64,000 bases of DNA from Mizuhopecten yessoensis (lineage: Eukaryota): positions 11,859-75,858 of the forward strand of contig NW_018406026.1 of the NCBI RefSeq assembly GCF_002113885.1, given 5' to 3'. Below, one piece after another: positions 23,666 to 63,282 of this stretch. The number at the start of each line of letters is the position of its first letter. Positions within the stretch are counted from its first letter, which is position 1. The position numbers and the translations under genes were made by a program. The notes under the pieces are model-generated. The model was not told the DNA's origin and did no database searches. It worked only from the letters and a program-made list of their open reading frames with translations.

Positions 23666-25077
23666 TATTTTACCATCCCCCGTTTCACCTCATTATCTAT
23701 TTTCCAAACCCCTACATTTATTTGCACACATGATAAACCCATATATTGTATCGATCCGGAGATACTTGAAAGGCATCTCACATAATAAAGGCTCAACCAC
23801 CATGAGCTCTGACAGTGGAATCAAGTATAAGATGAGGGTAGTAATTGTTAACTGGCAAATATTATCAATGACGGCTTTAAGCTCCCTCACCGATATGTTG
23901 CTAAATAGTGTCTATTTATCTATTTATTTATTTATTTATTTTCCTTTAAAGTTTGGCCTATTATCCTTCTTTTCCATTAATGTCTACACTTTCATTGATG
24001 TGACCTTCTTAACAATCATTGTGTCGTCGATACATTGTCGTCACTATATGGACTAAAACCAGTGTAATTGTAAAACAGCACAAATTTCAGCTATGAAACC
24101 AAGATAGATACAATGTGACTCGGTAACCATACTATGATAAACAAAACACCACAGCTATCGCAATAACGCTTTCTGTTTGTAAAGACTACAATTTTTAAAA
24201 AGTGAAAGCAGAAGAATATCCATTAATGCTGTTGAACTGTGTTTTCTTCAAAGCCAACGACTAGTAGTCACTTACCATCTAATGTAGCTCTCAACTTGTC
24301 ATTTCTGTAAGCATTTTATTGAGTTTAGTGGTTTTCTTGAGTGCATCGTGTGTCTCTGTAAAATGTAGAAAAACGCTTTCCTTATGCATTGCACAAAATA
24401 GTCAAGTCTTAATAGGGGCTGCGTACGGACTTTGGATAATACCACACATAGCATAACTGATAGCTATTTAATAAACACTAACCAATCAATACAAACGAAT
24501 TGAAAAATGCAATCGTATCGCGGTTAGAAACCGAGGAATCATTAACGTAGGACAATCGAAAACAACAGTGGTTACAACGACCGGGCAGGAAAGTGCTTCC
24601 CAGCCCAGGAAGTTCACTACAATGCGCTGTCGTTATGTAATCATCTGTAAAGTCAACATACATGGCAGGTTGTAGAGCAGCTCCTAAGACTCGGGGCTCT
24701 ACAACATGACCATCGGGGCTCTGGTTTTATCATATTTCTAAAAAAATATCTAGTTAGAACATCAAGTACTGTCAGCATTTTACAACATTACTACAGCAAA
24801 ATCTAAAATAAAGGGAATGTTTTGTTTTTAAAAAGTGAGATACAAAGATTTTTGTAGAGTTCCAAATATTATTAAATTCACAATGTGTTTTTTAAAACGA
24901 TAACTTATGTCCTATACACAATGTTAATGCCACACGTAGAAACCATTGGTAAGAATCTGGGGTGGGTATGTGTTTAGATTCCAGGGACATACAATGTTGA
25001 AATATAACGGGAAACGCCCCTCTTTCCGCCATTTTGATATAAATATATAAAACTTTATTTATTTTACAACCATTATG

Positions 25078-37800: not shown

Positions 37801-40800
37801 GTAGCTATGTTGTTGTGTTCATAAGGAGCTGCAATCTTCTGTCAACAATACTACATTGATATGATACCCACTCACAGTCATAAAGCACACAACCTTGTAT
37901 CTATATAAACATCGCATGTCTACAACTTCTAAAGAGATACTTATTGTCCGGAATTAGTTTTTCCGTGAAATGTTTTTAGTTGGTTAAATATGCATAGGAA
38001 ATACAATTTGTGCTGCATTGTTTTGTTAGTACTGGCGCTTAAATATAGCGTGACGTCACAATGACAAATGACGTTTCCAATACGACAAGGTGAACTAATA
38101 AAATGTAGATCCGGGTCCGTCTATTTCCGTGGCACATATTCGCAACATCACAATTAGATACCTACCACACAAATATTTACAGAAGTATTATAATTCTATC
38201 TTACCGTTGAACGTTTTCACATTTAAAGGAGTGAGCGCCCTTGAGGTTATAATATCGCTTAATCGGTGTTTCATTAACAAGACCAATTCATTCCGGAATA
38301 GAATATTCGATCGGAAGGCATTATATTGAACGTTTTTTCTGGACCTCTTTGATGCCAGTATTTTTACGCATAGTTAGCTATATAACACGCAAGAATGAAG
38401 TTTACACTATTAACTTGTTAAAAAAGGTTCTAATGTAGGGTACAGTCGTTAGCGAACATGTTGATATTTCGTTCATATGAGTACAATTACCACACAAAGC
38501 GATATATAATACTTTATTCAGACATAAAAGCGAATGATAAAAGTATTTAACACTATTATCCTTCCATTCAACTAAGATCAATTATTTCAATGAATGATTC
38601 GATTCCTAAGTACACGTATATATTCTCTGAAGGATGATGGTCTGTACAACGTATCTTGGTAACGTATATACATCATGTATACCTGGATTATTGGAATCCT
38701 TTGTAAAGAATATACATATAAACATATTGAAAATAAAAAAAAATCGTGTATGTATATATATAGGGCAACGTTTTCTTTCTTAATGGTATGTATGTAGGGA
38801 ACGATATCTTTAGTGTACAACTGAATGTATTTATCTAGGTAAAGATATCTTTAGTGTATGTTTGTATCTAGGTAAAGATATATTTAATGTATGTATGTAT
38901 CTAGGTAAAGATATCTTTAGTGTAGGTATGTATCTAGGGAAAGGATATCTTTAGTGTAGGTATGTATCTAGGGAAACGATATCTTTAGTGTAGGTATGTA
39001 TCTAGGGAAACGATATCTTGAGTATACGTATGTATCTAGGGAAACGATATCTTTAATGTATGTATGTATCTAGGTAAAGATATCTTTAGTGTAGGTATGT
39101 ATCTAGGTAAACGATATCTTGAGAGTGCGTATGTATCTAGCGAAACAATATCTTGAGTGTACGTATGTATCTAGGGAAACGATATCTTTAGTGTAGGTAC
39201 GTATCTAGGGAAAGGATATCTTTAGTGTAGGTATGTATCTAGGGAAACGATATCTTGAGTGTACGTATGTATCTAGGGAAACGATATATATAGTGTATGT
39301 TTGTATCTAGGTAACGATATCTTTAATGTTTGTATGTATTTAGAGAAAAGATATCTTTCGTGTAGGTATGTATCAAGGGGAACAATATCTTTAGTGTAGG
39401 TATGTATCTAGGGAAACGATATCATTAGTGTTGGTATGTATCTAGGGAAACGATATCTTTAGTGTAGGTATGTATTTAGGGAAAATATATCTTTAGTGTA
39501 TGTCTGTATTTAGGAAAACGATATCTTTAGTGTACGTATGTATCCAGGGAAAATATATCTTTAGGGTAGGTATGTATCTAGGTAAAGATATCTTTAGTGT
39601 ATGTATGTATCTAGGTAAAGATTACTTTAGTGTAGGTATGTATCTAGGGAAACGATATATATAGTGTATGTTTGTATCTAGGTAACGATATCTTTAGTAT
39701 AGGTATGTATCTAGGGAAACGATATCTTTAGTGTACGTATGTATCAAGGGAAAATGTATTTTTAGTGTAGGTATGTATCTAGGAAAACGATATCTTTAGT
39801 GTACGTATGTATCCAGGGAAAATATATTTTTAGTGTAGGTATGTATCTAGGTAAAGATATCTTTAGTGTATGTATGTATCTAGGTAAAGATTATTTTAGT
39901 GTAGGTATGTATCTAAGGAAACGATATCTTTAGTGCATGTATGTATCAAGGGAAAAGGTGTCTTTAGTGTAGGTATGTATCTAGGGAAAAGATATCTCTA
40001 GTGCATGTATGTATCAAGGAAAAAAAATACCTTTAGTGTAGGTATGTATCTAGGGAAACGATATCTTTCGTGTATGTATGTATCTAGGAAAAAGATATCT
40101 TTAGTGTAGGTATGTATCTAGGGAAACGATGTCTTTAGTGTAGGTATGCATCTAAGGAAACGATATCTTTAGTGTATGTATGTATCTAGGAAAAATATAT
40201 CTGTAGTGTAGGTATGTATCTAGGGAAACGATATCTTTAGTGTATGTTTGTATCTAGGGAAACGATATCTTTAGTGAAAATCCATAATTACATTACGGCC
40301 TTATGAACATATTTTAACTTACATTTTGTTATGAAGCTAAACTATTCGACCTTCTTAATTGTTTGGACTAGAACGAGAAAGAAAAGACAGGAAAAGACAT
40401 GAAAAACTTAAAGTACCTGTCTTGATGTCCTTTGTTTAATACGAAAATACTTTAACGATATTAGTCACTGAGATCTGCTAGATCAAAATCGTGTTTTGAT
40501 GATCTTAGAATTTTATCGGCTGATATTACTGTGGCTTAGTTTGTATGTCTAGATTGGCGACCAATGACTTACCTTTCCATTGATCACTGTTACTATGTGC
40601 GCTATCATCCAGCATGTGCTGGACGGAGCCTAAGCAACAATAAAAAATAGTTCTTGCTCAAATCTGTTGGTATTTTTTTCTACTCGTTGAAATTCATTAT
40701 TTGTAGATGCTAGCGAAACAACAGTTAGTCCTTCAACTGAGGAAATTCTGACGACAACAGAGGGAGAAACCACTACAGACCCTTTGTCTACTGTTGGAGT

Positions 40801-42386: not shown

Positions 42387-43967
42387 TGTGGTATCCACAC
42401 TTGTGGTGTCCACACTGGCGACCTCTTAAGTCCGAACAAAGGACGGTTTCTTATCAAAGCTATTATGCCAATTTGGTCCTCAGAGTTCGATATTATCTCT
42501 GTCTGCATTTAAACTAATGTCGTTTACAAAGGTAAGGAGACGAGGCAAATATCTGTTGTCAGAGACATTAATAGTATTCCCTAGGAACAAATGTAGATAC
42601 ATATATAGTTAATATATAACTGACAACACAATCATAGTTATCCACTGCAAGCAATGGGCCCCAAATGAAAGTTAACAACATCTTCTTTTTTTAAACAAAA
42701 TGTCTTTATGTAATTACACTTGTGTGTTTTATTTAAATACCATTTTGACGCCATCAAGCAATACAATGACTGTAAAAATTGTAATGCATGTTAAACTGCT
42801 ATTTCAAAGATTACTCAAATGTAGAAAGAAACTGACAGGACTAATCAACTTATCATAACAGCATATTTACATGTGCGTGATATTACCACGTTTTATACAT
42901 GTCTAAACTATATTTTGATTATAGACGAAGCGCTAGAAATGCAGTCGTCCGATTTGTGACGTCACCATTAATATGACGTTATGATTGTAATGTTGGATAC
43001 TGCAGAATATTGCTTGTAGATGACTGTTCTTTCTTATTGTAATTAAACATGAAACACAATATTGTTTGTTCTATCCGTATATTGTGTTAATCATTATTTT
43101 ACATCAAAATAGAAAAATGAATTGCTTTTCTTGCCGATTGCAATGTAAGAGTTTGGTGTTCATATTTCTTTTTCCTATAATATATACCAATGATTGCCTT
43201 TGCAAGCAGTTCAGTCAATAACGGGGATTTTTCTCAGAAAATTAAACGTTAAGGCTATTTACATTTTTAACATGTAAAACGTCTTTTTATTTGTTTTTAA
43301 TAACCTTATTCTACATGTTATCTTGGAAGGCACATGGTTACTCAGATAAGATGGGTTTTTTTTATCACCAGTACAGTTCTTTATCTTACCAGAAAAACAT
43401 GATGCACTCAATATACACTATGTACGAGACATCCTGGTTATTTCGTTCACATCGGGTCATCCAAATTATATAAAGAGAAGGTTTTAACTTACTCTGCGTG
43501 TGTAGATAAGAAGAGAGGCCATTTACAAACGTTTTGCTAGGTAGGTGAGGAAACTTATTAATTTTGTTAAGACGAAAAGGAAGTCATTATGCAGACATAT
43601 ATACATATCTAGTGTTAAATTAACCTTATTGAAAGTTGATCGTAACACTCACAAACACAGTGGACTGAACCTTTAAAATCATGTCGTTCATGTTACTGTC
43701 ATTCCACTTAAGATATACTGATTATATAGAAGTTTAACTCAAACACGAACTGGCACAATTCTGGTAAGTTCAATTTATAAACGTATATACTCTACACCAT
43801 CCGAAAAATATTCACGTGAATAGAAATAAGTATGATTCAATAACGATCACAAAAGTGTTTAATATCGGTTAGCATAGGTCAAATATTAAATACTTAGATG
43901 AGGTAAGTAAATCATCTGGAGTATCTAAATTCAGAACACTTAGAGGATATTTAAGGGTGTCTTCAGC

Positions 43968-44527: not shown

Positions 44528-45720
44528 TAACTTATAAATTTGAAATATGGTTATTGATTTAACAGACCATTACAAATTGCTTATAGATAGCCACTAGAAA
44601 CATAGAGTAAGGAAGCACTATGTATGCACATATTTCGTTTGTTGAGACAGGAACCCAAAAACGGTAAATGTTTACAGAATCGTACACCCTATGATTGTCC
44701 ATAAATCCCACTAATGTTTTAAATTTTAATTAATTTACAGAAGAATGACAACTTGGGTGTCATTTGGTAACATTGATGTTACAAAATAACATTTGTATTA
44801 ACCAATTGTCTTTTCGTTACCTATGACATGTTTGATTTTTCGTCGAGTTTTTACCTTACAACGTTGTTATAATTTATAAACTTTTTTTTCCGATACATTT
44901 CCGAATTTTTGGACCGTAGCGGTACCTCTGTATAACATTTTGCAAAAGAAATAATCCGGCACAGATACTGGTGACGAAATGGCGCCGTTTAACGACGACG
45001 ACAAGATGGAATACGTTCGCAATGTTAAGTAAAGGAAGATAATACAAACTGACTTTCCAGATAAAATAAGGAATTCAGTTTGTTGGTCAACAACATACAG
45101 AAAACTTTGTTGTTTTCCCCTCAAATTCGTTATTTCAGTATATTGCCCATTAGAGCTAAGAAAATGGTAATGAAATGATACCAGTCTGGGTTACCACTTC
45201 AGATTCAACAGTTTGGTTTCAATTCAACCCGCTGTTTGAACTTCTGTCACATTTGATATATATGTACATACAATAGTATTTTCAGCAAAATGTGATTCCT
45301 CAAAACTCATTTCTGTTCTTGGTCTCGCCTATTCCTCTAATAGTTGCCGTTGAACTTGTGACACTACAGCCAAAACCTTGTCCCATTCACCATAGATTCA
45401 TTACTATTTTCGTTAGAGTACACTTTAAACCTAAAATGTTGTATTTTGTATATTTGAGTAATTACTTAATTCAACTAAACGTAAAAAAAATATGACTATG
45501 GAGGATATTAAACGAATTCCTTGTAAACACATTATTTTACAAGCATTAGAACTACTTTTTTCCAGTATGAAACAAACAATATTGAAGCATTCAGGCTTAT
45601 GACTTATTTATTGAAAGTTACCTAGTTAATCGTTTATTCCTCTATTTCCCATCGACATCATAACGGGAAGCAGAAATTGTTTCTATCAATAAAGGGAAAG
45701 TTTTAAATTGGAAAATCGTA

Positions 45721-47466
45721 CTAATGATACATGGGAGATAATGTAGACCACGCACTAATGATACGTGGGAGATAATTTAGACCACGCACTAATGATACCT
45801 GGGAGATAATATAGACCACGCACAAATGATACATGGGAGATAATATAGACCACGAACTAATGATACATGGGAGCTAATGTAGACTACGCACTAATGATAC
45901 CTGGGGGTAATGTAGACAACGCACTAATGATACCTGGGAGATATTGTAGACCACGTACGAATGATACCTGGGGGATAATATAGACCACGCACTAATATTG
46001 TATGATTGATTAGAACGGTTGTTGAAAAAACAAATCCAATGTTCGCTGTCATTCGATGAACTTTTCATACACAAATTAACTTTCCCGCCAAAAAGAAATA
46101 TTTGTCAGAGTTCTATAGACCACGCACTAATGATACCTTGGAGATAATATAGACCACGCACTAATGATAGCTGTAGACCACGCACTAATGATACGTGGGA
46201 GATAATTTAGACCACGCCCTAATGATACCTGGGAGATAATATAGTCCACGCACTAATGATACATGGGAGCTAATGTAGACCACGCACTAATGATACCTGG
46301 GAGATAATGTAGACCACGCACTAATGATACGTGGGAGATAATGTAGACCACGCAATAATGATACCTGGGAGACAATATAGACCACGCACTAATGATGCCT
46401 GGGAGATAATATAGACCACGCTCTAATGATACCTGGGAGATAATGTAGGCCACGCACTAATGATGCCTGGGAGATAATATAGACCACGTACTAATGATAC
46501 ATGGGAGATAATATAGACCACGAACTAATGATACATGGGAGCTAATGTAGACTACGCACTAATGATACCTGGGGGTAATGTAGACCACGCACTAATGATA
46601 CGTGGGAGATAATTTAGACCACGCAATAATGATACCTGGGAGATAATATATACCACGCACTAATGATACATGGGTGATAATGTAGACCACGCACTAATGG
46701 TACATGGGAGATAATGTAGACCACGCAATAATGATACCTGGGAGATAATATATACCACGCACTAATGATACATGGGAGCTAATGTAGACCACGCACTAAT
46801 GATACATGGGAGATAATGTAGACCACGCACTAATGATACCTGGGATATAATATAGACCACGCACTAATGATACCTGGGGGTAATGTAGACCACGCACTAA
46901 TGATACCTGGGAGATAATTTAGACCACGCACTAATGATACATGGGAGATAATGTAGACCACGCACTAATGATACCTGGGAGATTATATAGACCACGCACT
47001 AATGATACCTGGGAGATAATGTAGACCACGCACTAATGCTACTTGGGAGATAATGTAGACCACGCACTAATGCTACTTGGGAGATAAATTAGACCACGCA
47101 CTAATGATACATGGGAGATAATATAGACCACGCACTATTGATACATGGGAGATAATATAGATCACGCACTAATGATACCTGAGAGATAATGTAGACCACG
47201 CACTAATGATACCTGGGAGATAATGTAGACCACGCACTAATGATACCTGGGAGATAATGTAGACTACGCACTAATGATACCTGGGAGATAATGTAGACCA
47301 CGCACTAATGATACATGGGAGATAATGTAGACCACGCACTAAGGATACATGGGAGATAATATAAACCACGCACTAATGATACATGGGAGATAATGTAGAC
47401 CACGCGCTAATGATACCTGGGAGATAATATAGACCACGAACTAATGATACGTGGGAGATAATATAG
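45721..47466. repeat. 34-bp minisatellite (CTAATGATACCTGGGAGATAATGTAGACCACGCA), about 45-48 copies, interrupted at about 46000-46112
   Basis: Period 34 (45721 to 45755). The interrupting segment duplicates the right flank at about 47470-47568. Confidence 0.96.
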
Positions 47467-47469
47467 ATT

Positions 47470-47900
47470 AAAGGTTGTTGAAAAAACAAATCCAATGTTC
47501 GCTGTCATTCGATGAACTTTTCATACACAAATTAACTTTCCCGCCAAAAAGAAATATTTGTCAGAGTTCATTGAGAATATGAAATCATGTTGTGGTACCC
47601 ATATATGGCTAAACGCAAAGATATGTTGGAGCTTGTCCAGAGAAGGGATTTAGAGATCTGTCATATCTGGAGCGGTTTAAAAGAATATAGTTTCCTGCTA
47701 AACGCTTCAGACCTACACCAGGTGCTGTGATTGAAGAAAACAAGATAACGAGTGGTGTCTTTGATCGAAATGCATCAGATTTCATGCAGCAGGACTGTTC
47801 TGAAAGACATGGTACCAGGCGCATTAAAATTATCCACACAATTCATCGAAATAAGGAAAACACTGCTTTCCTTTACATTCGATCTATACTAAAACAATAT
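47470..47900 (+). mobile_element. CR1-type LINE ORF2 relic (copy A)
   Basis: Frameshifted pieces EYEIMLWYPYMAKRKDMLELVQRR and GFRDLSYLERFKRI*FPAKRFRPTPGAVIEENKITSG match CR1 motifs LEY...VW.PY....LE.VQRRAT and L.Y.ERL..L.L..L..RR.RGDMIEVYKI. Confidence 0.72.
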
Positions 47901-48503
47901 CAATTCTTTAAGCTAGTCAGATCAAAATGAAAACCTATCAAATAATAAAACGATAAAAACATCTAGAAATTATTCAATAACAATAAATCATTAAAACTCA
48001 AAACTAAACAGACAATAATTATGTCAAAATTCAAGACTAGTCAAATTAATGTAATAACAAATCTCTAACCGAGTCAGATACAAATCAAGGGATACGATAG
48101 CAATGTGTTATCTGCTAGAAACGTCTGTTTATCTTATCTGAAGTTGTAATTACGAAATATCGGTCATTTGGACGGCGTGACCGTAGTCCTGTTTCTGAAC
48201 TACGCCAGAAAGATATACTGTCAATAAGTACACACTGAGTTGAGCACATAAAAAAGACAGAACTGAGGTCAGAAAGAAAATGCTTACATAGGCCAGCAGT
48301 TTTCTTACTAACTGTACTTGCGGGTCTGGTATACTGTTTGGTGCGTAATGCATTCAATTCAATTCAATCAAGCTTGATTGAAACCGTTGTAGTAATCTAC
48401 ATATTGATATAGTATTGTATTTGTCATTTATATTAGCAGGTTCAGAGTAATACACTTTATGATCAAAACTGGTGTTTTATTACTGATTCTTGTCGTTTCA
48501 GAT

Positions 48504-51500
48504 ATGACAATTTCCCCAGCATTCGTATTCTTTTTGGTGTTTGCTGTTTACCAAGGTATATTGATTTTTTCCAGATTTCCAGTATAACTATTGCTACGAC
48601 AAGTGTGACGTCAAGGCGTGTGAATTTTACAAATATTAGAAGAAAATATCGCAATAATTATCAGGGCAATCAATTAACAGTAAGACTTTAAATGCTTTTT
48701 ATTTGGTAGGGGAACTATTTTTGGGTATATTTTGTGAACAACGCAACAAAGGCAATCATAAAATTTACTGAGAATGATTGTGTGATGATGATAGACCTTC
48801 GGTTGATAATGTCTTTGTTGCGTCTGATTGCACGCTTTTTTAAATAGTCTATTAGCATATCCATGGAAACTAACTGTGTTACTCTCTTATCAAATTTAAA
48901 ATATATCAATACTGTGTGGTCTTTAAATAACGTTATTGACCACGTCAATTGTACATTTGAAATTGAAATCCATGACATTTCCTTGAATGTAACACCTTCT
49001 TACAATGTTAATATGTCGAAGTAAACCCGATATTTACTGGCTTTCCCCGATTATCGCGGTTCCCGTGTTAGGTGTCAATGCAGTTTGACAATTTTACACC
49101 ACGTGGTTTCGAGAGATGCCGGTTGATGAAGACTATTATTGCGAAATACGTATTCATTTAAATGATGGGTATACCGATGCTTTATTGTGTTCATCTGTTG
49201 GTTTGTTGTTTGAGTTGTCCCTACTCCTGTTCTGTCGCTGGGAGCATGACATTGCTTGAAGTTGACAAAGATTTAGGCTGATGTTGTCCATGAAACGAAA
49301 GACGCTTACCCCTCCGGAACACTCAAGTCTTACCATCATGTTACTTATTTATTTTATATTTATATTTAAAACTTGTTTCATTGGTTGTTATTTCGACTAA
49401 CGGTTTAGGTCACACTGAGATAGTCTCCTATTTTCTTTCATCAACATAGTTCAGATAATTTTGGATGGAGAAATAGGTTTACCTTGGTATGTAGAGACAT
49501 TGAAAACTTTTTTTGCAATGCGGGGAAATTACACATATTATATTTTCCAGACTGTGAACCCTACATTTCGTTTAATACTTATCTTTCTGAAAAGTCAAAA
49601 CACTTTGTCATCAGTTTATCCACTTTTAACTTATCTGAACATGGCATAACTAGGTCTCATTTATCATTTTGCAGTTGATGTTTCTGCTCTATTTTTAGTT
49701 CAAATACAGAAATATTTATTTTCATCGGAGTGAAAAATAACAGCCATTTTTAAATCTTATAATCCTCTAAGTTGCAGTGATGTATTGTTATAATTTCCCT
49801 GAAAAATAAACCTGTTATATTTATCGACTTCAGTGCCAATTTTAATCTGTATTATATTTATCCATTTCATTTTTGAGGAAGAAACAACAAATGTTTAACA
49901 ATGTTCTACGTTGTCTGTTATGTACCAGCATCGGGTGAGGTAAATACTACAGTAGCCACATGTGGTGACGTTCATCCCGACTGTCAGTCTTATGGTAAAG
50001 TCGTGTGCGATAGTATTAGGTATCAACCTTGGGCCAGGATAAATTGCGCCAAGTTCTGTAGTTTCTGTGGTAAGTAAAATATATATTACGAACTGTACAA
50101 CATACAATAAAGGCACGAGAGAAATGATTATCTCTATCCAATTTCTACCCTATGTCTCACTCTGGCTAGAACAAAGTGTTCAAAATTGGTATCTTGAACA
50201 ATTTCTAACAAAATATTGGCTGGTCATGACCGCTTTTTCCATGTGCTAACAGGGTCTAGTACAGGCCGAATCAATCTTTACCCAGAGTTGCCCTTCCTTA
50301 CACTCGGTAACAGTAAAGAATGACAACTCCGGGTAGAGATTGATGATGAACAAGATTTTTGCGGCATGCCATAAATAACTCTTAAATCGCAGTTGCACGA
50401 TTTTTCCTTACTCAAGCAAATTTCTTAAAGTAACTGTGCCACAATCTTTTGTAATAACTGTGGTAATTAAATTTAATAAATAGCTTAAATATTTTGGTAT
50501 GAAAAGATTAAAACATCGAATTACTTAAATCTTAATCAGAAATAAGCGTGCGAAGCCTTTTCCTAATTTCTACTTTTGTCACCAGGCGCAGGATTTAAGC
50601 AATGATTACGTTATAAAGATGTATAAGCGAATTTACGAAATGTCACGAAAGCAGAACACAAATATCGAATGGCGACTATGTCACAATAAACATTTCTTCA
50701 TATTAATTAATAATGATCCATTACGTCTCTTGGTATGCTGAACGACTTACTAGTTCACTCATGAAGAAGCATTAGCAAAAAATGAAAAATCGTTATAGCA
50801 GAGGAATCGTGCCGAAATTTGACATGAAATAATATCCTTTTGAAGAGGGCCCATTGAGACATGCGTGACATTATTTAAGTCATCGAATTCTAAGCGGTAC
50901 GTAGGGAAAAAAAATTAAATTCGTTCTTTCTATTTTCTTTCATCTCTTTGACGTGTTTTACGCCCTGAATGTGATTTTACGAAAAATTATGGATTTTTGC
51001 TTTGAACGAAAAAATAAGAAATGCCAGTTTGCCCTGCTGATAAGAAAGAGCGAAGGCTAGCGACACGGTAAAATTTAACTGAAGATTAGTCATAGGAAAG
51101 CATTACTGGCGTGAAAAGGAAATCAATCGTATATTTAAAATTTCTCTTAACTCATATGGAAAAAGTTAAGCTACATTCGTGAAACTATGGCAAGGGTTTA
51201 AAGGTGAATCCCTTAGTAGACAATACACACACACATATGTTGCTCATGCAATTTCATACACGATATGTATACCTTCTAAAATTCTTATAACAAAGCCGCT
51301 GTCTTATTCTGATGGAGACATTTGAACAGAAAGAACTTTATTCTTATTTTAAATATTCAATACATAAATTATTACAATTCTTTCATAATTGTTGCGAACA
51401 AAATGATTTTTTTACAATATTCATAATTATACTTTTGCATATAGTTGTATATAATTGCCTTCCGTTTCATATATATTTCAACAATGTATCCATTGAAAGT

Positions 51501-54500
51501 GATATTGATATAATATACTGTATATATGATATATCAATGTGCCAGTAAAACTAAAACCGTAAACCGTATTTGTGATTATAGTAATTAGCGAGATATTAGT
51601 CCATATATAAAATATAATTTCCTGTTTATCATGTCATTCACGAAATGATACCTGTTTATGATATGATCCACAATGTATTTTGACCTCGTTTTTTACAAGG
51701 TGACAACGGGTGTGAGGATAAACTGCATAACTGTGAGATCTATGGTACCGCCGCATGTCAATCCCCGTTCGTTCCCTGGGCTACCAAGAATTGTGCCAGG
51801 TATTGCGGTATATGTGGTAGGTTGATAAACATCTCACTGTTATTGTTGGCTTTTCTGGCGATCCTACATGTAGCTTGACATAAGTTCAAATCGGCTTATC
51901 ATGCGACTTAGAATTCCGTTTAAACTTTTATTCAAAATTCAAATTACGATATTTTACCTTAATGCGTCAAGAACATACTTACGTTGTAAGCGTTTTTCAC
52001 CCTGTTTCACATTTAAACATACAGATATATTTGACTGGAATAAGCATCAAAGCATAGGTATAACAGCATTTCGAGACTGACGGAAACAGTGTAAGGAGTT
52101 AAGCTAGAGTCGGGGCAGAAAGAATTTTGGATCACTTAATGATTAGTTAAGCCCTAGGGGACCCTGCCTGGGTCAGACACGTTAGAAAGCAGGAGAAACT
52201 ACAGTTCAGTGACTAGTCCATCTATACGTGGCCCGACTGGTAAGGTTATAATCTCTCACTTATCAATGTATATAAAATGAATTATGTCCTTCTTTACTCA
52301 AAAAAAAAAGTTTAAAAAAGGCAGGCGAATCGCAGCAACCTGTACTAAGGGGGGAAGGGACAACGGACAGTACCCCGAACACTATATAAAGCGTATTACC
52401 TATAGTTTACATGATCCAAAAGATCCATTTAGGAGGCGTCGACGCAAAGGCCACCGTCAAATTGATCAATATTTAGGCATAATTATTCAATTTTAATGCT
52501 CTTGATTTGTTTCATCCAAATATCAAAAACATCTTTATGTTGAGTTCTTGAAACATTCCTTTCACGTGAATCATGAAGAACAATGTGCATAAATTAAGTG
52601 TATAAAACAAACAGAGAAATATTGTGTCTACTTATTTTATTGTAAAAGATAACATGGATATATATTTTTACTTTGAACATAGGAACAATAAAGGTACCAA
52701 CCCATCCTCCACTAGCTCCCTCAATGGCTGGTTGCCATGACGAGATAACGGACTGTAGTTCCTATGGCCAGGATGCCTGCAAGCAATACGAAACCTGGGC
52801 CCGACAAAATTGTGCCTCATTTTGTGGATTTTGCAGTGAGAGTCTCCCCATCACAATTCGCATCACACAGGGACACTGACAAAGTCCTTTCTAAAGAGTT
52901 CAGTTATAAACTTAATTGCATAAAAATAATTACAATATAGGCAAGGAGTGATACACAGTCGTTGACCATTTTGAATTCTGATATTCTTTTTAACACAAAA
53001 CTATACAAAATTAATACATTGATCATATTTATTTAAAGTTATACTTGAACAAACGTTTTCATAATATGTTTAGAAAACTATTTTACAGAATTATTTTCAT
53101 TGGATTATTTAAAAAAAATGGCTATCCATAATTTATTCCAGGTACACTTAACCCACTTAGCCACTCAGCTGTGTGCTTAAAATCTCTAGTTTACTAGTAG
53201 TATACTGCTGGTATGGGACAGAGAATTGAGAAACTATATTTTATACGTTGATTAATTATTTTTATTATTTTTTGCTCTAGCGACAGCAAAACCTACCATA
53301 CCAGCGTATTTTTACACTGGGACCTTTCCACCAGGCTCCAACGGAACATTAAACAGGTAAGGGGCTCATACTGAGATAATCTTAAGTGAATATAGAATTA
53401 ACTGGACACCTGGTTCAACCAACCAATCATTTACTTGTTTAATTTGTCTAGTCAATAACCATGGAACTCCTTAATTGGACGGTAATATTTTCTGAAGAAA
53501 AATAAATAAAATACATTTTTAACTAATGTATCCAGATAAATAAAAACAACTGGAAGATGATGTTTCCAATCTAAACTAAAAAAAACAACTGTTAATTTAG
53601 ATTGGTAATCTCATTTTTTACTTTAAATTTCTCAGACATTTTTTTTATTAATATAGAATACATGATCATTGTCTTCAAACAATTCAGAACATTTCAGAAG
53701 GGGTAAGGAAAGACGATGGTACTACGTAGCTTTAGCGACTGATTAGCGTCTTTATATCTGTCGTACAGATATCTTGTATTTTATGAAACATACATGAAGA
53801 TATCAGTTTTCGTGATGTAGTGTTTAGTGAGATTTTCTGCTGCAGATTTGGAATGATGAAGAAACAAGCTTTAATTAAAGACCCGAATGGCTTTATTTTT
53901 CACTCTGTTGACTCAAGCAGAAAGGTATTGAGCCATGTACAAACTTCAAGATATCAAATAGAAGTAGAAAACAATATTCACATCATTTATGTTGCCTGGC
54001 TTTGTTATTTACGCGCTTGCATTATTGTTATAATATGTATTCGGTATGAAGGCGATGATAAGTTTATATCACGCCTGCCTTATCCTCTGCACTAAATGCT
54101 GGGCAGTAAATATGTTTGAAATCATGACAAGAAGCATATATTTAACCCACTTCAAAGGCATCTAAAGGGAGATAACCGCCCCTTCTTTAATGTCATATAT
54201 CATTTAGTGAATGTCCGTAACTTGTTTTTACTTTTTTATTGTTTCATTTTTTTTCATTTCTGCCAGATGTTTTTATAAAGGACAGTTTTATCAAACAAAC
54301 GACTCTTGGCAAGACGGTTGTGAGTTTAACTGTACCTGTACGGACGATACCAGAGGAAGATACATCTGTTCATCTTTGTAAGTACAGTTAGAAGTCAAGT
54401 AACATAATGCCTTATATGTTGGCAATATTCTTACTTTGACGACACACTTCCATGACGCAAAAGATTCTATACTTAAACTTCCTATGAAATTATTCGGTCC

Positions 54501-55402
54501 CTGTTCATATTAATCAAGACAGGTTCACTGCAAAACATTGTTAAGGCATAAGTGTTAGAAGTTAGTAACATTAATAATTAAAGTGACATTTTAAAACTAT
54601 ACATCCAACTAAATAAAAGGAATTTGAAGATTTTGTTTCGAATCTTAACGAAATATTATTATTCTTTGAATTTAGTTTGGTACACTTATTTTATACTTTA
54701 TAGTTCCTAGACAATACTTGTTCAATATAGAATACATGATCATTGTCTTGAAACACTTCAGTACAATTCAGCAAGGGTAAGGAAAGACGATCATAATAGT
54801 TTTAGCTAATGCTCAGCGTCTTTATATCTGTCCAACTGATATCTTGTATTTTATGAAACATATATGTATTCTGTATATTATGCAAACCTTCCAATATATA
54901 ATTCATTCGTGCATATTCACATGAGATATAGGTATTTCTCGTGTTAAAATATAACATCAAATGTGACGCAAAGTTAACGTGACAACAGTGAAGTAATAGA
55001 TTTACTGCTCAGATTCACACTGTTAACATATTCAGCTATCAATGTTTTTTTCAAACTCCGTTCCCGTTTGTTAAACTCCACAAGCCGTGCCTGTCTGTTT
55101 ACCGTATGCTACAATTGTAATCTAAATAGTAACACCCCAAATAGGAATGTCGCTTGTTTTCTAATGTATGGTAAGCAGAAAATAGTATTTTCTCGTATTG
55201 GGTTGTGGTGTCAGTCAAACATTTTATCTAAGTCTCCATTTTCAAAAAGAATTTTCCCTCTGTTTACTTCAGATGCTACACGTGGACACTACCTAGTGTC
55301 TGCCATTTAGAAACTCCACTCGGGAAGTGCTGTGCCAAACCAGTTTGTTCTGCGAATTTCCAAATACATTATCCGCCTGGCTACGTAGATCACGACGTCT
55401 GA
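48504..55402 (+). CDS. Secreted protein: signal peptide + 3 ShKT domains + Pro/Thr linker + VWC domain (259 aa), copy A
   Basis: Seven phase-consistent GT-AG exons: 48504-48555 (MTISPAFVFFLVFAVYQ), 49929-50069 (CGDVHPDC..VC..WARINCAKFCSFC), 51700-51816 (CEDKLHNC..WATKNCARYCGIC), 52683-52835 (CHDEITDC..WARQNCASFCGFC), 53281-53356, 54267-54377 (CFYKGQFY..WQDGCEFNCTC..YIC), 55273-55402 (C..GKCCAKPVC..YPPGY..stop). Total 780 nt. Confidence 0.88.
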
Positions 55403-55413
55403 GACGATGTANT

Positions 55414-55684
55414 AGCCTGACGATAACGGCCACCTCACTAATACACTCTGTTACCTACAGCATGACGATAACGACCACCTCACTAATACACTCTGTTACC
55501 TACAGCATGACGATATCGGCCACCTCACTAATACACTCTGTTACCTACAGCATGACGATAACGACCACCTCACTAGTACACTCTGTTACCTACAGCATGA
55601 CGATAACGGCCACCTCACTAGTACACTCTGTTACCTACAGCATGACGATAACGGCCACCTCACTAATACACTCTGTTACCTACA
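55414..55684. repeat. 45-bp tandem repeat x6 immediately after the copy A stop codon
   Basis: GCATGACGATAACG(A/G)CCACCTCACTAATACACTCTGTTACCTACA repeated; preceded by a single N at 55412. Confidence 0.93.
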
Positions 55685-55839
55685 CTTTTCTGATATGGGT
55701 AACTTAACTCTGTAACATATAATAACTTGTCCCATTCATCATAGATTCATTACTATTTTCGTTCAAAGTACACTTTAAACCAAAAATGTTGTATTTTGTA
55801 TGTTTGAGTAATTACTTCATTCAACTAAGCGAAAAAATT

Positions 55840-56950
55840 AATGACCATTTAGGACATTAAACGAATTCCTGATAAACACATTATTTCACAAGCTTTAAAA
55901 CAATTTTTTCCAGTCTGAAACAAAAAATATTGAAGCATTCAGGCTTATGACCTATTTATTGAAAGTTACCTCGTTTATCGTGTATTTCTCTATTTCCCAT
56001 CGACATCATAACGGGAAGCAGAAATTGTTTCTATCAAGAAAGGGAAAGTTCAAATTGGATAATCGTATAGCTACGTTGGTGAGTTACTTTAATTCCTCTC
56101 AAGATATTAGATGAATTGACGGATGTTTTAGAGCATACTATTATCTGTAGCGTGTATTGACATAGACTTTTTAAAACCTCTGATACCATTCCCCATAGAA
56201 GAGAATCAAGTTAAATATTATCTAATAGGCTAAGAGAGCATATTATTAACTGGAATAATAGAATCTATCACTCCTGTGTGATATAGACAGAGATATCTNA
56301 ACCTTCATGCCAGACAGAGAACAAAAGGCATCTCTGAAAAACACCACTCAAATATAATATTACTAAAATAATGACGCGCTAGAAGAGGTATGCCATGTGA
56401 GTGATCTCTGGGAGATAATGTAGACCAAGCAATAATGATCCCTTGCAGATAATGTAGACCACGCACTAATGACACCTGGGAGATAATGTAGACCACGCAC
56501 TAATATTGTATGATTGATTAGTACGGTTGTTGAAAAGACAAATTCAATGTTCGCTGTCATTCAATGAAATTTTCATACACGAATAAACACACTTTCCCGC
56601 CAAAAAGGAATAATTGTCAGAGTTCATTGAGAATATGCAAACATGGTGTGGTACCCATATAAGGCTAAACGCAAAGATATGTTGGAGCTTGTCCAGAGAA
56701 GGGATTTAGAGATCTGTCATATCTGGAGCGGTTTAAAAGAATATAGTTTCCTACTAAACGCTTCAGACCTACACCAGGTGCTGTGATTGAAGAAAACAAG
56801 ATAACGAGTGGTGTCTTTGATCGAAATGCATCAGATTTCATGCAGCAGGACTGTTCCGAAAGACATGGCACCGGGCGCAATAAAATTATCCACACAATCC
56901 ATCGAAATGAGAAAAACACTGCTTTCCTTTACATACGATCTATACTAAAA
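55840..56950 (+). mobile_element. CR1-type LINE ORF2 relic (copy B, longer), containing three units of the 34-bp satellite
   Basis: Same 3' motifs as copy A. Upstream degenerate motifs occur in the expected order: RKQ.V.ING..S.W-like (56012-56068) and LEEV...DLG..VD..L-like (56378-56432). Confidence 0.6.
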
Positions 56951-57568
56951 CAATATCAATTCTTTAAACTAGTCAGATCAAAATGAAAACCTATCCAAAA
57001 CTATCAAATAAAAAAATGGTAAAACACCTAGAAATTATTCAGAACAATAAAGTATTAAAACTCAAAACTTAACAGACAATAATTATTTTAAAATTCAAGA
57101 CTAGTCAAATTGATGTAATAACAAATCTCTAACCGAGTCAGATAAAAATCAAGGGATAAGATAACAATGTGGTATCTGCCAGAGACATCTGCTTATCTTA
57201 TCTCAAGTTGTAACTACAAGATATCGGTCATTTGGACGGCGTGACCGTAGTCCTGTTTCTGAACTACGTCAGAAAGATATACTGTCAGTAAGTACATTCT
57301 GTGTTGAGCACTTAAAAAAGACAGAACCAAAGTCAGAAAGAAATTGCTTACATAGGCCAGCAGTTTTCCTACTTGCTGCAGTTGTGGGTCTGGTATATTT
57401 TTTGGTGCGTAATGCATTCAATTCATTTCGATCAAGCTTGTTTGAAAACGTTGTAGTAATCTACATATTGATATAGTATTGTTTTTGTCATTTACATTAG
57501 CAGGTTCAGAGTAATACACTTTATGATCGAAACTGGTGTTTTATTACTAATTCTTGTCGTTTTCAGAT

Positions 57569-60500
57569 ATGACAATTTCCCCAGCATTCGTATTCTTTTT
57601 GGTGTTTGCTGTTTACCAAGGTATATTGATTTTTCCAGATTTCCCGCATAACTATTATTACGACAAGTGTGACGTCAAGGCGTGTGCATTTTACAAATAT
57701 ATCAACTAATAGTAAGACTTTAAATGAATTTTATTTGGTTGTGAACTATTTTGTAGTATATTTTGTGAACAACAATGATTGTGTGATGATGATAGACCTT
57801 CGGTTGATAATGTCGTTGTTGCCTCTGATTGCACGTTTTTATCAATAGCCTATTAGCATATCCATGGAAACTAACTGTGTTACTCTCTTAACCGATTTAA
57901 AATATATCAATGATTTGTGGTCTTTAAATAACGTTATTGACTACGTCAATCGTACATTTGAAATTGAAATCCAGGACATTTCCTTGAATGTAACACCTGC
58001 TTACAATGTTAATATGTCGAAGAAAATTTGATATTTACTGGCTTGCTCCAAATATCGCGGTTCCCGTGTTAGGTGTCAATGCAGATTGACAATTTTACAA
58101 CACGTGGTTTCGGGAGATGCCGGTTGATGAAGACTATGGGCAGATTATAAGGTCACCAACATAAGCTTATTGCGAAATACGTATTCATTTAAATGATAGG
58201 TATACCGATGCTTTATTGTGTTCATCTGTTGGTTTGTGTTTTGAGTTGTCCCTACTCCTGTTCTGTCGCTGGGAGCATGACATTGCTTGAAGTTGACAAA
58301 GATTTAGGCTGGTGTTGTCCATGAAACGAAAGACGCTTACCCCTCCGGAACACTCAAGTCTTACCATCATGTGACTTATTTATTTTGGCTATATTTAAAA
58401 CTTGTTTCATTGGTTGTTATTTCGACTAACGGTTTAGTTCACGCTGAGATAGTCTCCTATTTTCTTTCATCAACATAGTTCAGATAATTTTGGATGGAGA
58501 AATAGGTTTACCTCGTTATTTAGGGATTGTGAACCCCATATTTCGTTCAAAAGTTATCTTTCTGAAAAATCAAAACCCTTTGTTTATTCACTTTTAAGTT
58601 ATCTGAAAATGGCATAACTAGGCCTCATTTATCATTTTGCAGTTGATTTTTCTGCTCTAATTTTAGTTCAAATACAGAAATATATATTTTCGCCGAAGTG
58701 AAATATAACAGCCATTCTAAAGTCTTCTAATTCTCTTAGTTGCAGTGCTGATTTGTTCCCTGGAAATTAAACCTGTTATATTTGTCGATTTCAGTGCCGA
58801 TTTTTAATCTGTATTATATTTATACATTTCATTTTTGAGGAAGAAACAACAAATGTTTAACAATGTTCTACATTGTCTGTTTATGTACCAGCATCGGGTG
58901 AGGTAAATACTACAGTAGCCACATGTGGTGACGTTCTTCCCAACTGTCAGTCTTATGGTAAGGTCGTGTGCGATCACCCTTATCAAAGTTGGGCCAGAAA
59001 AAATTGCGCCAAGTTCTGTAGTTTCTGTGGTAAGTAAAAACTATATTACGAACTATACAGCTTATAATAATGATGATCTTTCTCTAATTTCTACCCAATG
59101 TCTCACTCTGACTAGACCAGTGTTCAAAATTGGTCTCTCGAACAATTTCTAACAAAATATTGGCCTGTCAGGACCGTTTTTTCCATGTGCTAACAGGGTC
59201 TAGTACATGACGAATCAATCTGTACCCAGAGTTGCCGTTCCTTACACTCGGTAACAGTAAAGAATGACAACTCTGGGAAAAGATTGATGACGAACAAGAT
59301 TTTTTTTACGACATAAATAATTGTTAAATCGCAGTTGCACGATTTTTCCTTAACGCAAGGATTTGTTTTTAAAGTAACTGTGTCACAATCTGTTGTAAAA
59401 ACTGTGGTAAAAAGATTTTATAAATAGCTTAAGTATTTTGGTATGAAAAGATTAAAACATCGAATTACTTAACTCTTTATCAAGCATAAGCGTGCGAAGC
59501 CTTTTTCTAATTTTTACTTTTCTCACCAGGCGCAGGTTTTAAGCAATGTTAACGTTATAAAGATGCATAAGCGAATTTACGAAATGTCACGAAAGTAGAA
59601 CCCAAATATCGAATGGCGACTATGTCAAAATAAACATGTCTTCATCTTCATTAATAATGACCCATTACGTCTCTTGGTATGCTGAACGACTTACTAGTTC
59701 ACTCATGAAGAAGTATTAGCAAAAAATGCATGATCATTATAGCAGAGGAATCGTGCCGAAATTTGACATGAAATATTATCCTTTTGAAGAGAGCCCATTG
59801 GGACATGCGTGACATTATTTAAATCATCGAATTCTTAGCGGCACGTAGGAAAATTGAATTAAATTCGTTTTTTCTAGTTTCTTTTATCTCTATGACATGT
59901 TTAACGTCATAAATGTGATTTTAAGCAAAATTATTAACTTTTCCTATGAATGGAAAATAAGAAATGCCAGTTTGCCCTGCTGATAAGAAAGAGCTAAGGC
60001 TAGCGACACGGTATAATTTAACTGAAGATTAGTCATAGGAAAGCATTACTGGCGTGAAAAGAAAAACAATCGTATATTTAAGGTTTCTCTTAACTCCGAT
60101 GAAAAAAGTTAAACTACATTCGTGAAACTATGGCAAGGGTTCAAAGGTGAATCCCTTAGTAGACAATACACACACACATATGTTGCTCATGCAATTTCAT
60201 ACACGACATGTATACCTTCTAAAATTCTTATAACAAAGCCGCTGTCGTATTCTGATGGAGACATTTGAACAGAAAGAACTTTATTTTTTAAATTATAGAT
60301 AGTTAACAATAAAATAATTACAATTCTTCTATAATTGTTGCGAAATAATTAATTGTTTACAATATTCATAATAATACTTTTGCATATAGTTGTATATAAT
60401 TGCCTTCCGTTTCATATATATTTCAACAATGTATCCATTGAAAGTGATATTGTTATAATATATATATGATATATCAATGTGCCAGTAAGACTAAAACCGT

Positions 60501-63282
60501 AAACCGTATTTGTGATTATAGTAATTAGCGAGATTTTAGTCCATATATAAAATATAGTTTCCTGTTTATCATGTCATTCACGAAATGATGCCTGTTTATG
60601 ATCTGATCCACAATGTATCGTGACGTCGTTTTTTTCCTTTTGACAAGGTGACAACGCGTGCAAGGATATACTGCATAACTGTGAGACCTATGGTACCGCC
60701 GCATGTAAATCCCCGTACGTTACCTGGGCTACCAAGAATTGTGCCAGGTATTGCGGTATATGTGGTAGGTTGATAAACATCTCCCTGTTATTGTTGGCTT
60801 TTCTGGCGATCCTACATGTAGCTTGACATAGTGCAAATCGGCTTATCATGCGACTTAGAATAAACTATTATTCAAAATTAAAATTACCAATATTTTACTT
60901 TAATGCGTCAAGAACATACTTACGTTGCAAGAGTTATTCACCCTGTTTCACATTTAAACATACAGATATATTGGACTGGAATAAGCATCAAAGCATAGGT
61001 ATAACAGCATTCCGAGACTTAATGAGTTAAGCTAGAGTCGGGGCAGCAAGAAATTTGGATCACTTAATGATTAGTTAAGCCCTAGGGGACCCTGCCTGGT
61101 TCAGACACGTTAGAAAGCAGGAGAAACTACAGTTCAGTGACTAGTCCATCTATACGTGGCCCGAGGAGTAATGTCATACTCTCAACTTATCAATGTATTT
61201 AAAATGAATTATGTCCTTCTTTACTCAAAGAAGTCAAAAAAGGCAGCCGCATCGCAGCCACTTTTACTGAAGGGGAGATGGGACAATGGACAGTACCGAA
61301 CACTATAAGATCCAAATATATCGACGCGTAGGCCACCGTCAAACTGATACATTTTTTGGCACACTTATATGCTTAACCAGTAAAAAGTTTCCATTAAAAG
61401 TAAATATTCGTTTGTGATAAGAAAAAAATGAAAATTATTGACTGAATTATAACTAAATATAGGGGAACAAAACATTGCTTATTCAATCTTAATGCTCTTG
61501 ATTTGTTTCACCCAAATATCAAAAACATCTTTATGTTGTGAGTTCTTGAAAACATTCCTTTCACGTGAATCATGAAGAAAAGAAACAGAGAAACGCTGTG
61601 TCTATTTATTTTATTGTAAAAGATTACATGGATATATTTTTACTTTGAACATAGGAACAATAAAGGTACCAACCCATCCTCCATTAGCTCCCTCAACGGC
61701 TGGTTGTCATGACGAGGTAACGGACTGTAGTTCCTATGGCCCGGATGCTTGCAAGCAATACGAAACCTGGGCCCGACAAAATTGTGCCTCATTTTGTGGA
61801 TTTTGCAGTGAGAGTCTCCCTATCACAATTCACATCACACAGGGACACTGACAAAGTCCTTTCTAAAGAGTTCTGTTATAAACTTAATTGCATAAAAATA
61901 CTTAGAATATAGGCAAGGAGTGATACACAGTCGTTTATCATTTGGAATTCTGATACGCTGTTTAACACAAAACTATACAAAATTAATACATTTATCATAT
62001 TTATTAAAAGATATACTTGACCAAACGTTTTCATGATATGTTTTAGAAAACTAATTTACATAATTATTTTCATTGGATTATTTCGAAAAATGGCTACCGT
62101 AATGTATTCCAGATACACTAAACCCTATTGATGTTGCCACTCAGCTATGTGCTTAAAATCTCTAGTTTACTAGTAGTATACTGCTGGTATCGGACAGAGA
62201 ATTGAGAAACTATATTGTACAGTATACTTTGATTAACTATTTTTATTATCTTTTCTCTAGCAACAACAAAACCTACCATACCAGCGTATTTTTACACTGG
62301 GACCTTTCCACCAGGCTCCAACGGAACATTAAACAGGTAAGGGGCTCATACTGAGATAATCTTAAGTGAATATAGAATTAACTGGACACCTGGTTCAACC
62401 AACCAATCATTTACTTGTTTCATATGTCTTTTCTTTTTGAACTCCTTAATTGGACGGTAATATTTTCTGAAGAAAACTAAATAAAATACATTTTTAACTA
62501 ATGTATCCAGATAAATAAAGAATTGGAAGATGATGTTTCCAATCTTAACTAAAAAAATATTTTTATTCAGTTAATTTAGATTGGTAAACCCATTTTTTAC
62601 TTTAAATTTCTCAGACATTTTTTTTTTATCAATATAGAAAACGTGATCATTGTCTTGAAACAATTCAGTACATTTCAGCAAGGGTAAGGAAAGACGATGA
62701 TACTACGTAGCTTTAGCGACTGATTAGCGTCTTTATATCTGTCGTACAGATATCTAGTATTTCATGAAACATACATGAAGATATCAGTTTTCGTGATGTA
62801 GTGTTTAGTGACATTTTCTGCAGAAAATTTGGGATGATGAAGACACAAGCTCTAATTAAAGACCCGAAAGGCTTTATTTTTCACTCTGTTGACTCAAACC
62901 GAAAAGTATTGAGCCATGTACAAACTGCAAGATATCAGATATAAGCATAAAACAATATTCACACCATTTATATCACGTCTGCCTTATCCTCTGCACTTAA
63001 TGCTGGGCAGTACATATGTTTGAAATGACCAGAAGCTACATTTAACCCACTTCAAATGCATCTAAAGGGAGATAACCGCTCCTTCTTTAGTGTCATATAT
63101 CAGTTAGTGTATGTCCTTAACTTGTTTTTACTTTTTAATTGTTTCATTTTTTTTTGTATCATTTCTGCCAGATGTTTTTATAAAGGACAGTTTTATCAAA
63201 CAAACGACTCTTGGCAAGACGGTTGTGAGTTTAACTGTACCTGTACGGACGATACCAGAGGAAGATATATGTGTTCAACTTT
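57569..63282 (+). CDS. Secreted 3xShKT + VWC protein, copy B (last exon beyond window)
   Basis: Exons 57569-57620, 58892-59029, 60648-60764, 61655-61807, 62261-62336 and 63172-63282. All splice sites, phases and cysteines are intact. Confidence 0.87.

What the first reader, a model, noticed from the sequence alone, without database searches (positions are those of the whole stretch)
48504..63282. Tandem secreted 3xShKT-VWC genes with replacements concentrated in ShKT domains 1 and 2
Seen by hand comparison of copies A and B. Signal exon: identical. ShKT1: H>L, D>N, SIR>HP, P>S, I>K versus 2 silent changes. ShKT2: 7 replacements (G>A, E>K, K>I, I>T, Q>K, F>Y, P>T) versus 1 silent. ShKT3: 3 versus 3. 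All Cys and Trp are fixed, and copy B is about 3 charges more cationic in domains 1-2. Established: ShKT folds occur in K+ channel toxins and in mollusc immune, mucus and shell proteins; no adjacent Lys-Tyr dyad is seen here. Inference: a diversifying secreted effector or recognition family on a fixed disulfide scaffold. The ORF track largely misses it because the exons are short.
Basis: partly seen in the sequence, partly recalled or inferred. Interest (0 to 1): 0.7.

Follow-up and report, generated by a model that had tools for sequence, protein, structure and literature searches.

The report
Scallop ShK gene pair, one-sided divergence
A scallop gene for a likely secreted, probably digestive-gland protein with three ShK-type domains was duplicated in tandem without its first exon, and the copy that kept that exon carries nearly all the protein changes, likely from loosened constraint rather than proven positive selection.

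Summary
The counts are right; the reading needs changing. The genes are Yesso scallop LOC110450631 (A) and LOC110450632 (B): signal peptide, three Pfam ShK domains, one VWC-like domain, 72-73% identical to orthologues in three other scallop genera. They are true tandem paralogues: the duplication junction is in the sequence, and an unplaced contig bridges the assembly gap. The duplicated unit leaves out exon 1 and its TATA box, so only A has them. Pairwise, the excess in ShKT1-2 is not above chance (12 replacement against 3 silent, pN 0.071, pS 0.063, flanking introns 0.082; P=0.58). With outgroups, 16 of 18 resolvable changes lie on A, while non-coding changes split 35:28 (Fisher P=0.012). 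B is under purifying selection. A's ShKT1-2 change at 1.2-1.7 times the intron rate (not significant), mostly at variable positions of an intact disulfide scaffold. Both copies are transcribed; the spliced contigs in 3 of 4 runs are A-type. Most likely: ordinary asymmetric divergence after partial duplication of a non-toxin, probably digestive-gland protein. Adaptive change in A stays open (about 0.35).

The parts
43318..43510 (.). Cluster of 5 WGATAA (GATA-type) motifs around the start of the gene
   Evidence: sites at 43318, 43344, 43362, 43381, 43504; mean 0.67 per 200 bp over the contig stretch. The link to gut expression is recalled, not tested.
43467..43473 (+). TATA box (TATATAA), about 30 bases before exon 1
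   Evidence: function inferred from position
43500..43541 (+). Non-coding exon 1, single copy, outside the duplicated unit (5' end approximate)
   Evidence: Loose end of an RNA contig before the ATG exon (X1) maps here and is followed by GTAGGT; no second copy found in G000
45377..55411 (+). Duplicated unit A as assembled; starts inside intron 1
   Evidence: Self-comparison
48504..48555 (+). Copy A ATG/signal exon
   Evidence: matches XP_021353923
49929..50069 (+). Copy A ShKT1 exon, with 3-nt insertion
   Evidence: insertion seen in RNA contigs of X1, X6, X7
51700..51816 (+). Copy A ShKT2 exon
52683..52835 (+). Copy A Pro/Thr linker plus ShKT3 exon
53281..53356 (+). Copy A linker exon; adds a predicted beta strand (residues 163-167)
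54267..54377 (+). Copy A VWC-like domain, first half
55273..55402 (+). Copy A VWC-like domain, second half, and stop
55412..55412 (.). Single-N assembly gap that hides A's 3' UTR (about 330 bases plus contig C61431)
55414..55684 (.). 45-bp minisatellite, 6 units, resembling the right end of the unit
55685..55770 (+). Tandem-duplication junction: 3' flank-like sequence joined at 55725/55726 to intron 1 sequence (45377)
   Evidence: no N between 55413 and 56298
56521..57404 (+). Transcribed B-type upstream stretch, spliced GT..AG to B's ATG exon; stands in for exon 1
   Evidence: (joint 883-1046 in X6 and X7; X7 record 20 with 4 other letters where A and B differ at 63)
57569..57620 (+). Copy B ATG/signal exon
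   Evidence: XP_021353925
58892..59029 (+). Copy B ShKT1 exon
60648..60764 (+). Copy B ShKT2 exon
61655..61807 (+). Copy B linker plus ShKT3 exon
62261..62336 (+). Copy B linker exon
63172..63282 (+). Copy B VWC-like first half; the last exon lies beyond the window (would be 64193-64322; L031:1051-1180)

Best explanation
A scallop gene for a likely secreted three-ShKT plus VWC-like protein was duplicated in tandem without its first exon, and copy A, which kept that exon, took nearly all later amino-acid changes, likely because constraint on the exposed positions of domains 1-2 loosened while copy B kept the ancestral protein. Shown: gene structure, junction, single exon 1, one-sided protein change, fewer replacements on B than the intron rate predicts, transcription of both copies. 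Inferred: unequal recombination between intron 1 and the 3' flank made the duplicate; later conversion or exchange homogenised the 3' end; B is transcribed from former intron 1 sequence or by read-through from A. Inferred with low confidence: the protein is a non-enzymatic, glycosylated binding module released by digestive-gland cells, with three independent ShKT beads on Pro/Thr linkers as ligand-binding surfaces and the VWC/beta-microseminoprotein-like end as a protein-docking domain. It is likely not a processed K+ channel toxin.
For: Paralogy: junction sequence; C61431 holds 3' UTR-like sequence and ends in the minisatellite that follows the gap; an A-type RNA contig runs from the last exons into C61431 sequence (X7); three versions of some intron stretches in one assembly (L063, L065, L067). 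Asymmetry: A 16, B 2, unresolved 5 of 23 differing columns; against Pecten 16:0, Argopecten 12:2, Ylistrum 12:4 (P=3e-5, 0.013, 0.077); non-coding changes polarised with repeat copies 35:28 (19 unresolved of 82 with votes), Fisher P=0.012, or 0.022 counting the indel block once. B: 2-7 replacement changes against 17-20 expected at the intron rate, P<=0.004. A: 14-19 against 20-22; ShKT1-2 ratio 1.2-1.7, P=0.06-0.36. A's changes fall mostly on columns that vary across 449 related domains; the conserved D, Y, W, A, N and Cys columns are spared except Y88F. Model pLDDT about 90 per domain, pTM 0.39, low-confidence linkers. Four N-x-S/T sites; one dibasic site in B, none in A. Mussel multi-ShKT gene is digestive-gland specific at about 32,000 TPM (PMC9077915, passages); ShK and VWC are both enriched in mussel digestive gland (PMC5549309, passages).
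Against: Counting the SIR/HP block as 5 separate base changes gives a ratio of 1.8-2.3 with P=0.003-0.03, which favours positive selection. A changed 10 of 163 residues that are invariant in B and three outgroups, and L33H is rare in the family (2 of 366). It is odd under simple relaxation that the copy with the native promoter and the dominant spliced contigs is the one released. The outgroup proteins give no DNA, so silent changes could not be polarised; the three outgroups probably form one clade (recalled). Tissue is unknown: runs are coded, and the mussel genes were not shown to be orthologues of this one. The A/B comparison rests on one allele each, and intron alleles differ by up to 4-5%. 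No function was tested.
Confidence: 0.48

Rival explanations
1. Positive selection on A: after duplication, copy A was adaptively retargeted at the surfaces of ShKT1-2, for example to a new microbial, algal or dietary ligand, while B holds the old function.
For: Changes cluster in domains 1-2 (12 of 21, P=0.033 after scaling). The A-branch ratio is above 1 in every counting scheme (1.17-2.25) even with the invariant Cys included. Signal exon unchanged and the ShKT3 region at 0.3-0.6, so A is not free everywhere. 5 of 14 otherwise invariant non-Cys positions of ShKT1 changed in A. A-type spliced contigs in 3 of 4 runs.
Against: Not significant unless one multi-base block is counted as five events; the region was picked after seeing the data. 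A's VWC-like region also runs at 0.7-1.0 of the local rate, so the release is not limited to domains 1-2. No further young paralogues were found.
Confidence: 0.35
2. Copy A is in early decay to a pseudogene and all its change is neutral.
For: Total A-branch replacements (14-19) are close to the neutral expectation (20-22). A lost conserved Pro residues in the VWC-like domain (P233L, P243S).
Against: Frame, 28 Cys, all Trp and all splice sites are intact. The only coding indel is in frame while the introns hold about 50 gaps. The first 32 codons are identical. A-type spliced contigs are present in three studies.
Confidence: 0.08
3. A and B are two divergent alleles of one gene that the assembler placed in tandem.
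For: Single-N gaps at 55412 and 56299, one exon 1 and one assembled 3' UTR: the usual look of a false duplication. Orthologues appear as single loci.
Against: A gap-free join of 3' flank-like sequence to intron 1 sequence, bridged to A's UTR by C61431 and by an RNA contig. Three versions of some intron stretches in the same assembly.
Confidence: 0.05
4. The protein is an ion-channel-blocking ShK-like toxin or defensive effector under an arms race.
For: ShK fold and signal peptide. Channel modulation can occur without the dyad (PMC6409789, passages).
Against: No Lys-Tyr pair in A or B and no dibasic sites between domains in A. The domains carry the motif shared with large matrix-type proteins holding VWA, TSP1 and lectin domains. 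No solved ShK toxin was matched by sequence. Orthologues are 72-73% identical across genera.
Confidence: 0.06

Closest known systems
[quoted passage not shown]
   Same: Same domain set; orthologues align end to end with the same Cys; top atlas hit 0.88 with 192 shared features, a lead only; many relatives combine both modules.
   Different: Here there is a recent, promoter-excluding tandem duplicate with one-sided divergence. No member was found with a described function in the searches run.
Mussel digestive-gland multi-ShKT protein MGAL10A054097 (PMC9077915)
   Same: Multi-ShKT bivalve protein; source of the tissue hypothesis.
   Different: Orthology not tested; its sequence was not fetched; whether it has a VWC-like end is not known to me.
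Sea anemone ShK toxins and vampire-snail ShKL peptides (PMC6409789)
   Same: Six-Cys ShKT pattern, Pfam PF01549 above cut-off, signal peptide.
   Different: No Lys-Tyr dyad; embedded in a 259-residue protein with glycosylation sites and a VWC-like end; host is a filter feeder.
VWC / beta-microseminoprotein / tick CirpT1 fold (5nb8, 6rwc, 6rpt)
   Same: The predicted C-terminal domain matches these best: Foldseek E 0.012-0.019, target TM 0.57-0.67; VIA Z 5.4-5.9, rmsd 3.0-4.3 over 65-80 residues.
   Different: Matches are weak (no E<=0.001, no Z>=8), identity 16-26%; a shared fold shows no function.

Membership tests
ShKT domain (Pfam PF01549) | Profile score above the gathering cut-off | tested here: met
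   6 of 6 ShKT exons score 25.4-32.1 bits against 20.9; 3 stretches in each whole protein
ShKT domain (Pfam PF01549) | Six Cys with C-x3-C-x2-C end and short helices | tested here: met
   Pattern in all domains; two short helices per domain at pLDDT about 90
ShK-type K+ channel toxins | Lys-Tyr dyad | tested here: not met
   No KY in P0001 or P0002; the dyad's role as given in PMC6409789
ShK-type K+ channel toxins | Released as a small peptide from a precursor | tested here: inconclusive
   No dibasic site in A; one inside ShKT1 of B; other processing cannot be excluded
ShK-type K+ channel toxins | Channel block by electrophysiology | not testable with these tools
   Needs recombinant protein
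VWC domain (PF00093) | Profile score above cut-off | tested here: not met
   22.2 and 21.9 bits against 27.6 for the half-domain exon; no hit for the whole protein at E 0.01; some relatives pass (P0009, P0084)
VWC domain (PF00093) | VWC-like fold, 10 Cys | tested here: inconclusive
   Best structural matches are VWC, beta-MSP and CirpT1, all weak; sequence match to CCN3 vWC E 0.057
Diversifying effector or recognition multigene family | Many young paralogues | tested here: not met
   Two close copies; the next ShKT exon is 68% identical; counts from the genome search are lower bounds
Diversifying effector or recognition multigene family | dN/dS significantly above 1 | tested here: inconclusive
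   Pairwise P=0.58; A branch 1.2-1.7, not significant, or 1.8-2.3 and significant if the block counts as five
Diversifying effector or recognition multigene family | Induction by infection or barrier-tissue expression | not testable with these tools
   Runs are coded without tissue
True tandem duplication (against a haplotype artefact) | End-to-start junction and more than two sequence versions | tested here: met

The most novel reading that the evidence does not exclude
The promoter-keeping, dominant copy A has been adaptively retargeted at its ShKT1-2 surfaces to a new gut ligand, while the promoter-less copy B, transcribed from former intron sequence or by read-through, safeguards the ancestral protein. 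That reverses the usual fates of a partial duplicate and gives a natural A/B pair that points to the binding surface of non-toxin ShKT domains.
Probability: 0.3. Interest if true: 0.5.

Novelty: new member of a known kind. Interest (0 to 1): 0.3.

Why it matters
Non-toxin ShKT proteins are abundant in molluscs and, as of a 2019 paper (PMC6409789, passages), the multidomain ones were uncharacterised. A young pair that differs at 23 positions, with the ancestral state known, is a ready comparison for finding which ShKT surfaces bind what. It is also a tidy case of partial duplication in which the copy without the native first exon is the conserved one. If A's change is only relaxed constraint, the finding is an ordinary duplication and matters mainly as an annotation fix: a shared-looking exon 1, a hidden 3' UTR and a placeable orphan contig.

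Tried and rejected
Allele artefact: taken seriously at about 45%, then rejected. Pairwise dN/dS as evidence of selection: rejected. Charge shift as a trend: no direction against orthologues. Gene conversion of A's SIR block from another ShKT exon: no donor within 2 mismatches in G000. First fold on 7 sequences failed (pLDDT 32); the second on 45 worked. The fold searches were filled by the C-terminal domain, so the ShKT fold was not confirmed structurally. Sequence search of solved structures found no ShK entry at E<=1. Run search: no holder on record as RNA was listed. Raw RNA reads on copy A: X19 laid 8 reads (5 at 99% or more) over exon bins; X22, X23 and X24 covered almost only intronic repeats, so levels could not be measured. 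Codon site models could not be run: only two coding DNA sequences were in hand. Literature: 0 papers for LOC110450632, 0 for six gene or protein identifiers, 0 for ShK+VWC+bivalve; searches listed nothing on this gene by title or abstract start; PMC6641155, PMC9416634, PMC4203926 and PMC8626072 (passages) added little. No supplementary files were read; expression tables there may list these genes. Earlier findings of the scan: none.
Full report
Observation. Both copies have clean GT-AG exons and open frames of 259 (A) and 258 (B) residues. B's last exon lies just past the window. The proteins match RefSeq LOC110450631 and LOC110450632 of Mizuhopecten yessoensis, both 'uncharacterized'; these models probably come from the same assembly, so they are not independent support. 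All six ShKT exons pass Pfam's ShK cut-off; the C-terminal domain scores under the VWC cut-off.

Is the ratio unusual? Not pairwise. ShKT1-2 have 12 replacement and 3 silent differences over 169 and 47 sites, indel block left out (pN 0.071, pS 0.063, P=0.58). The whole gene has 21 and 8 (P=0.78). Flanking introns differ by 6.9-10.2%, the two exons by 8.7% and 6.8%. Divergence falls towards the 3' end (last intron 2.6%), which explains part of the clustering: 12 of 21 replacements lie in domains 1-2, P=0.006 raw and 0.033 after scaling by local intron divergence.

Paralogues or alleles? Single-N gaps at 55412 and 56299, one exon 1 and one assembled 3' UTR first suggested a false duplication. 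Four results say otherwise. (1) The A-type RNA contig of X7 runs from the last exons through a B-like 3' UTR and then into sequence found once in G000, on the 529-base contig C61431. (2) C61431 starts with 3' UTR sequence and ends in the 45-bp minisatellite that follows the gap. (3) After the minisatellite, sequence resembling the 3' flank joins, without a gap, to intron 1 sequence at 45377. (4) Three of eight small contigs checked are third versions of intron stretches, close to A (L065) or to B (L063, L067). The unit therefore runs from intron 1 to about 470 bases past the stop.

What each copy inherited. Exon 1 (donor at 43541), a TATA box at 43467 and five WGATAA motifs lie outside the unit and were found once. 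A keeps them. B does not; B-type contigs cover the stretch upstream of its ATG exon and splice GT..AG into it in X6 and X7.

Transcription. In 3 of 4 contig runs from four studies (X1, X6, X7) the spliced contig over ShKT1 carries A's insertion (word depth 375, 712, 385), and 39 of the 40 variant rows shown match A's letters (431 rows were not shown). X2 shows B-like contigs only, spliced at depth 7.5. These runs are only guessed to be RNA, but their joints fall on the predicted splice sites. Contigs show presence, not level, so 'A dominates' is an inference. Of four raw-read RNA runs laid on A, one had 8 reads and three had almost no exon cover.

Direction of change. Orthologues from Pecten, Argopecten and Ylistrum are 68-73% identical. 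Of 23 differing columns, 16 are derived in A, 2 in B and 5 unresolved. As a control I polarised non-coding differences inside repeats against other copies of those repeats: 35 A, 28 B, 19 unresolved among 82 sites with votes, of 94 differences. Protein change is thus one-sided and DNA change is not (Fisher P=0.012; 0.022 with the indel block as one event). Against intron rates B shows 2-7 replacements where 17-20 are expected (P<=0.004); A shows 14-19 where 20-22 are expected. In ShKT1-2 A's ratio is 1.2-1.7 (P=0.06-0.36) with the block left out or counted once, and 1.8-2.3 (P=0.003-0.03) if its five bases count separately. I treat the block as one event. Across 449 related domains the conserved columns are D, Y, Y, W, A, N and the Cys; A's changes avoid them except Y88F, a common alternative (51 of 449), while L33H is rare.

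What the protein is. A model built on 45 sequences shows three helical ShKT beads and a beta domain, each near pLDDT 90, joined by low-confidence linkers (pTM 0.39). The C-terminal domain resembles VWC, beta-microseminoprotein and tick CirpT1 folds, all weakly. Relatives number 644 clusters at E<=0.001 and include large proteins with VWA, TSP1 and lectin domains and a mollusc ShK/VWC cluster (a lead only). There is no Lys-Tyr pair, though PMC6409789 (passages) notes that the dyad is neither required nor sufficient for channel activity. In mussels a multi-ShKT gene is a digestive-gland marker (PMC9077915, passages), and ShK and VWC domains are enriched in that organ (PMC5549309, passages; its authors attribute the ShK signal to putative metalloproteases, which this protein is not). 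With the GATA cluster (gut link recalled), a secreted digestive-gland binding protein is my best guess, at perhaps even odds.

Verdict. The supported story is asymmetric divergence after a partial tandem duplication: B constrained, A's first two domains changing at about the neutral rate or somewhat faster on an intact scaffold. Relaxed constraint is slightly more likely than positive selection on present data; a diversifying toxin-like family is not supported. New member of a known kind; interest 0.3.

Noticed in passing
window 10427-11854 (-): Uninterrupted frame of 475 residues with TROVE (E 4e-16) and Ro60 vWA (E 9e-7) domains: a Ro60-like gene or retrocopy.
   Followed up: partly
window 45717-47467: A 34-bp minisatellite in A's intron 1 carries a GATAA motif in most units; only about 100 bases of it are assembled in B (56402-56504), near a gap. 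Another GATAA-rich stretch lies about 9-12 kb past the window end.
   Followed up: no
window 48071-48140 against 57135-57205: A second GATA cluster about 400 bases before the ATG exon: B has 4 WGATAA sites, A has 3, only two at matching places. Could be the element that drives B.
   Followed up: partly
L049 (G000:C61431:1-529): Unplaced contig that belongs in the gap at 55412; against B's UTR it has two insertions of about 95 and 135 bases.
   Followed up: yes
L034-L036 (G000:C2474:1344500-1347900): An older paralogue with the same three ShKT exons in the same order (31-57% identity); no VWC-like exon was found within the 30 kb fetched.
   Followed up: partly
G000:C4580, C5354, C1331, C76750, C3643, C76605: Clusters of many ShKT and VWC-like exons, probably large multidomain matrix genes; 30 and 70 exon matches as lower bounds.
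   Followed up: no
window 50012-50034: A's SIR block creates a short inverted repeat (AGGT..ACCT) absent in B, which may point to one template-switch event; no donor found elsewhere in the genome. Seen by eye, not tested further.
   Followed up: partly
window 54400-54800: A and B are almost identical here (3 of 400 bases), the mark of a recent conversion tract in the last intron.
   Followed up: partly
window 1-40300: Many long minisatellite arrays (1-5079, 17948-19700, 22139-23666, 26192-26786, 30665-32746, 34917-36149, 38743-40276); the long reading frames at 1-4845 and 34973-35529 are repeat translations.
   Followed up: no
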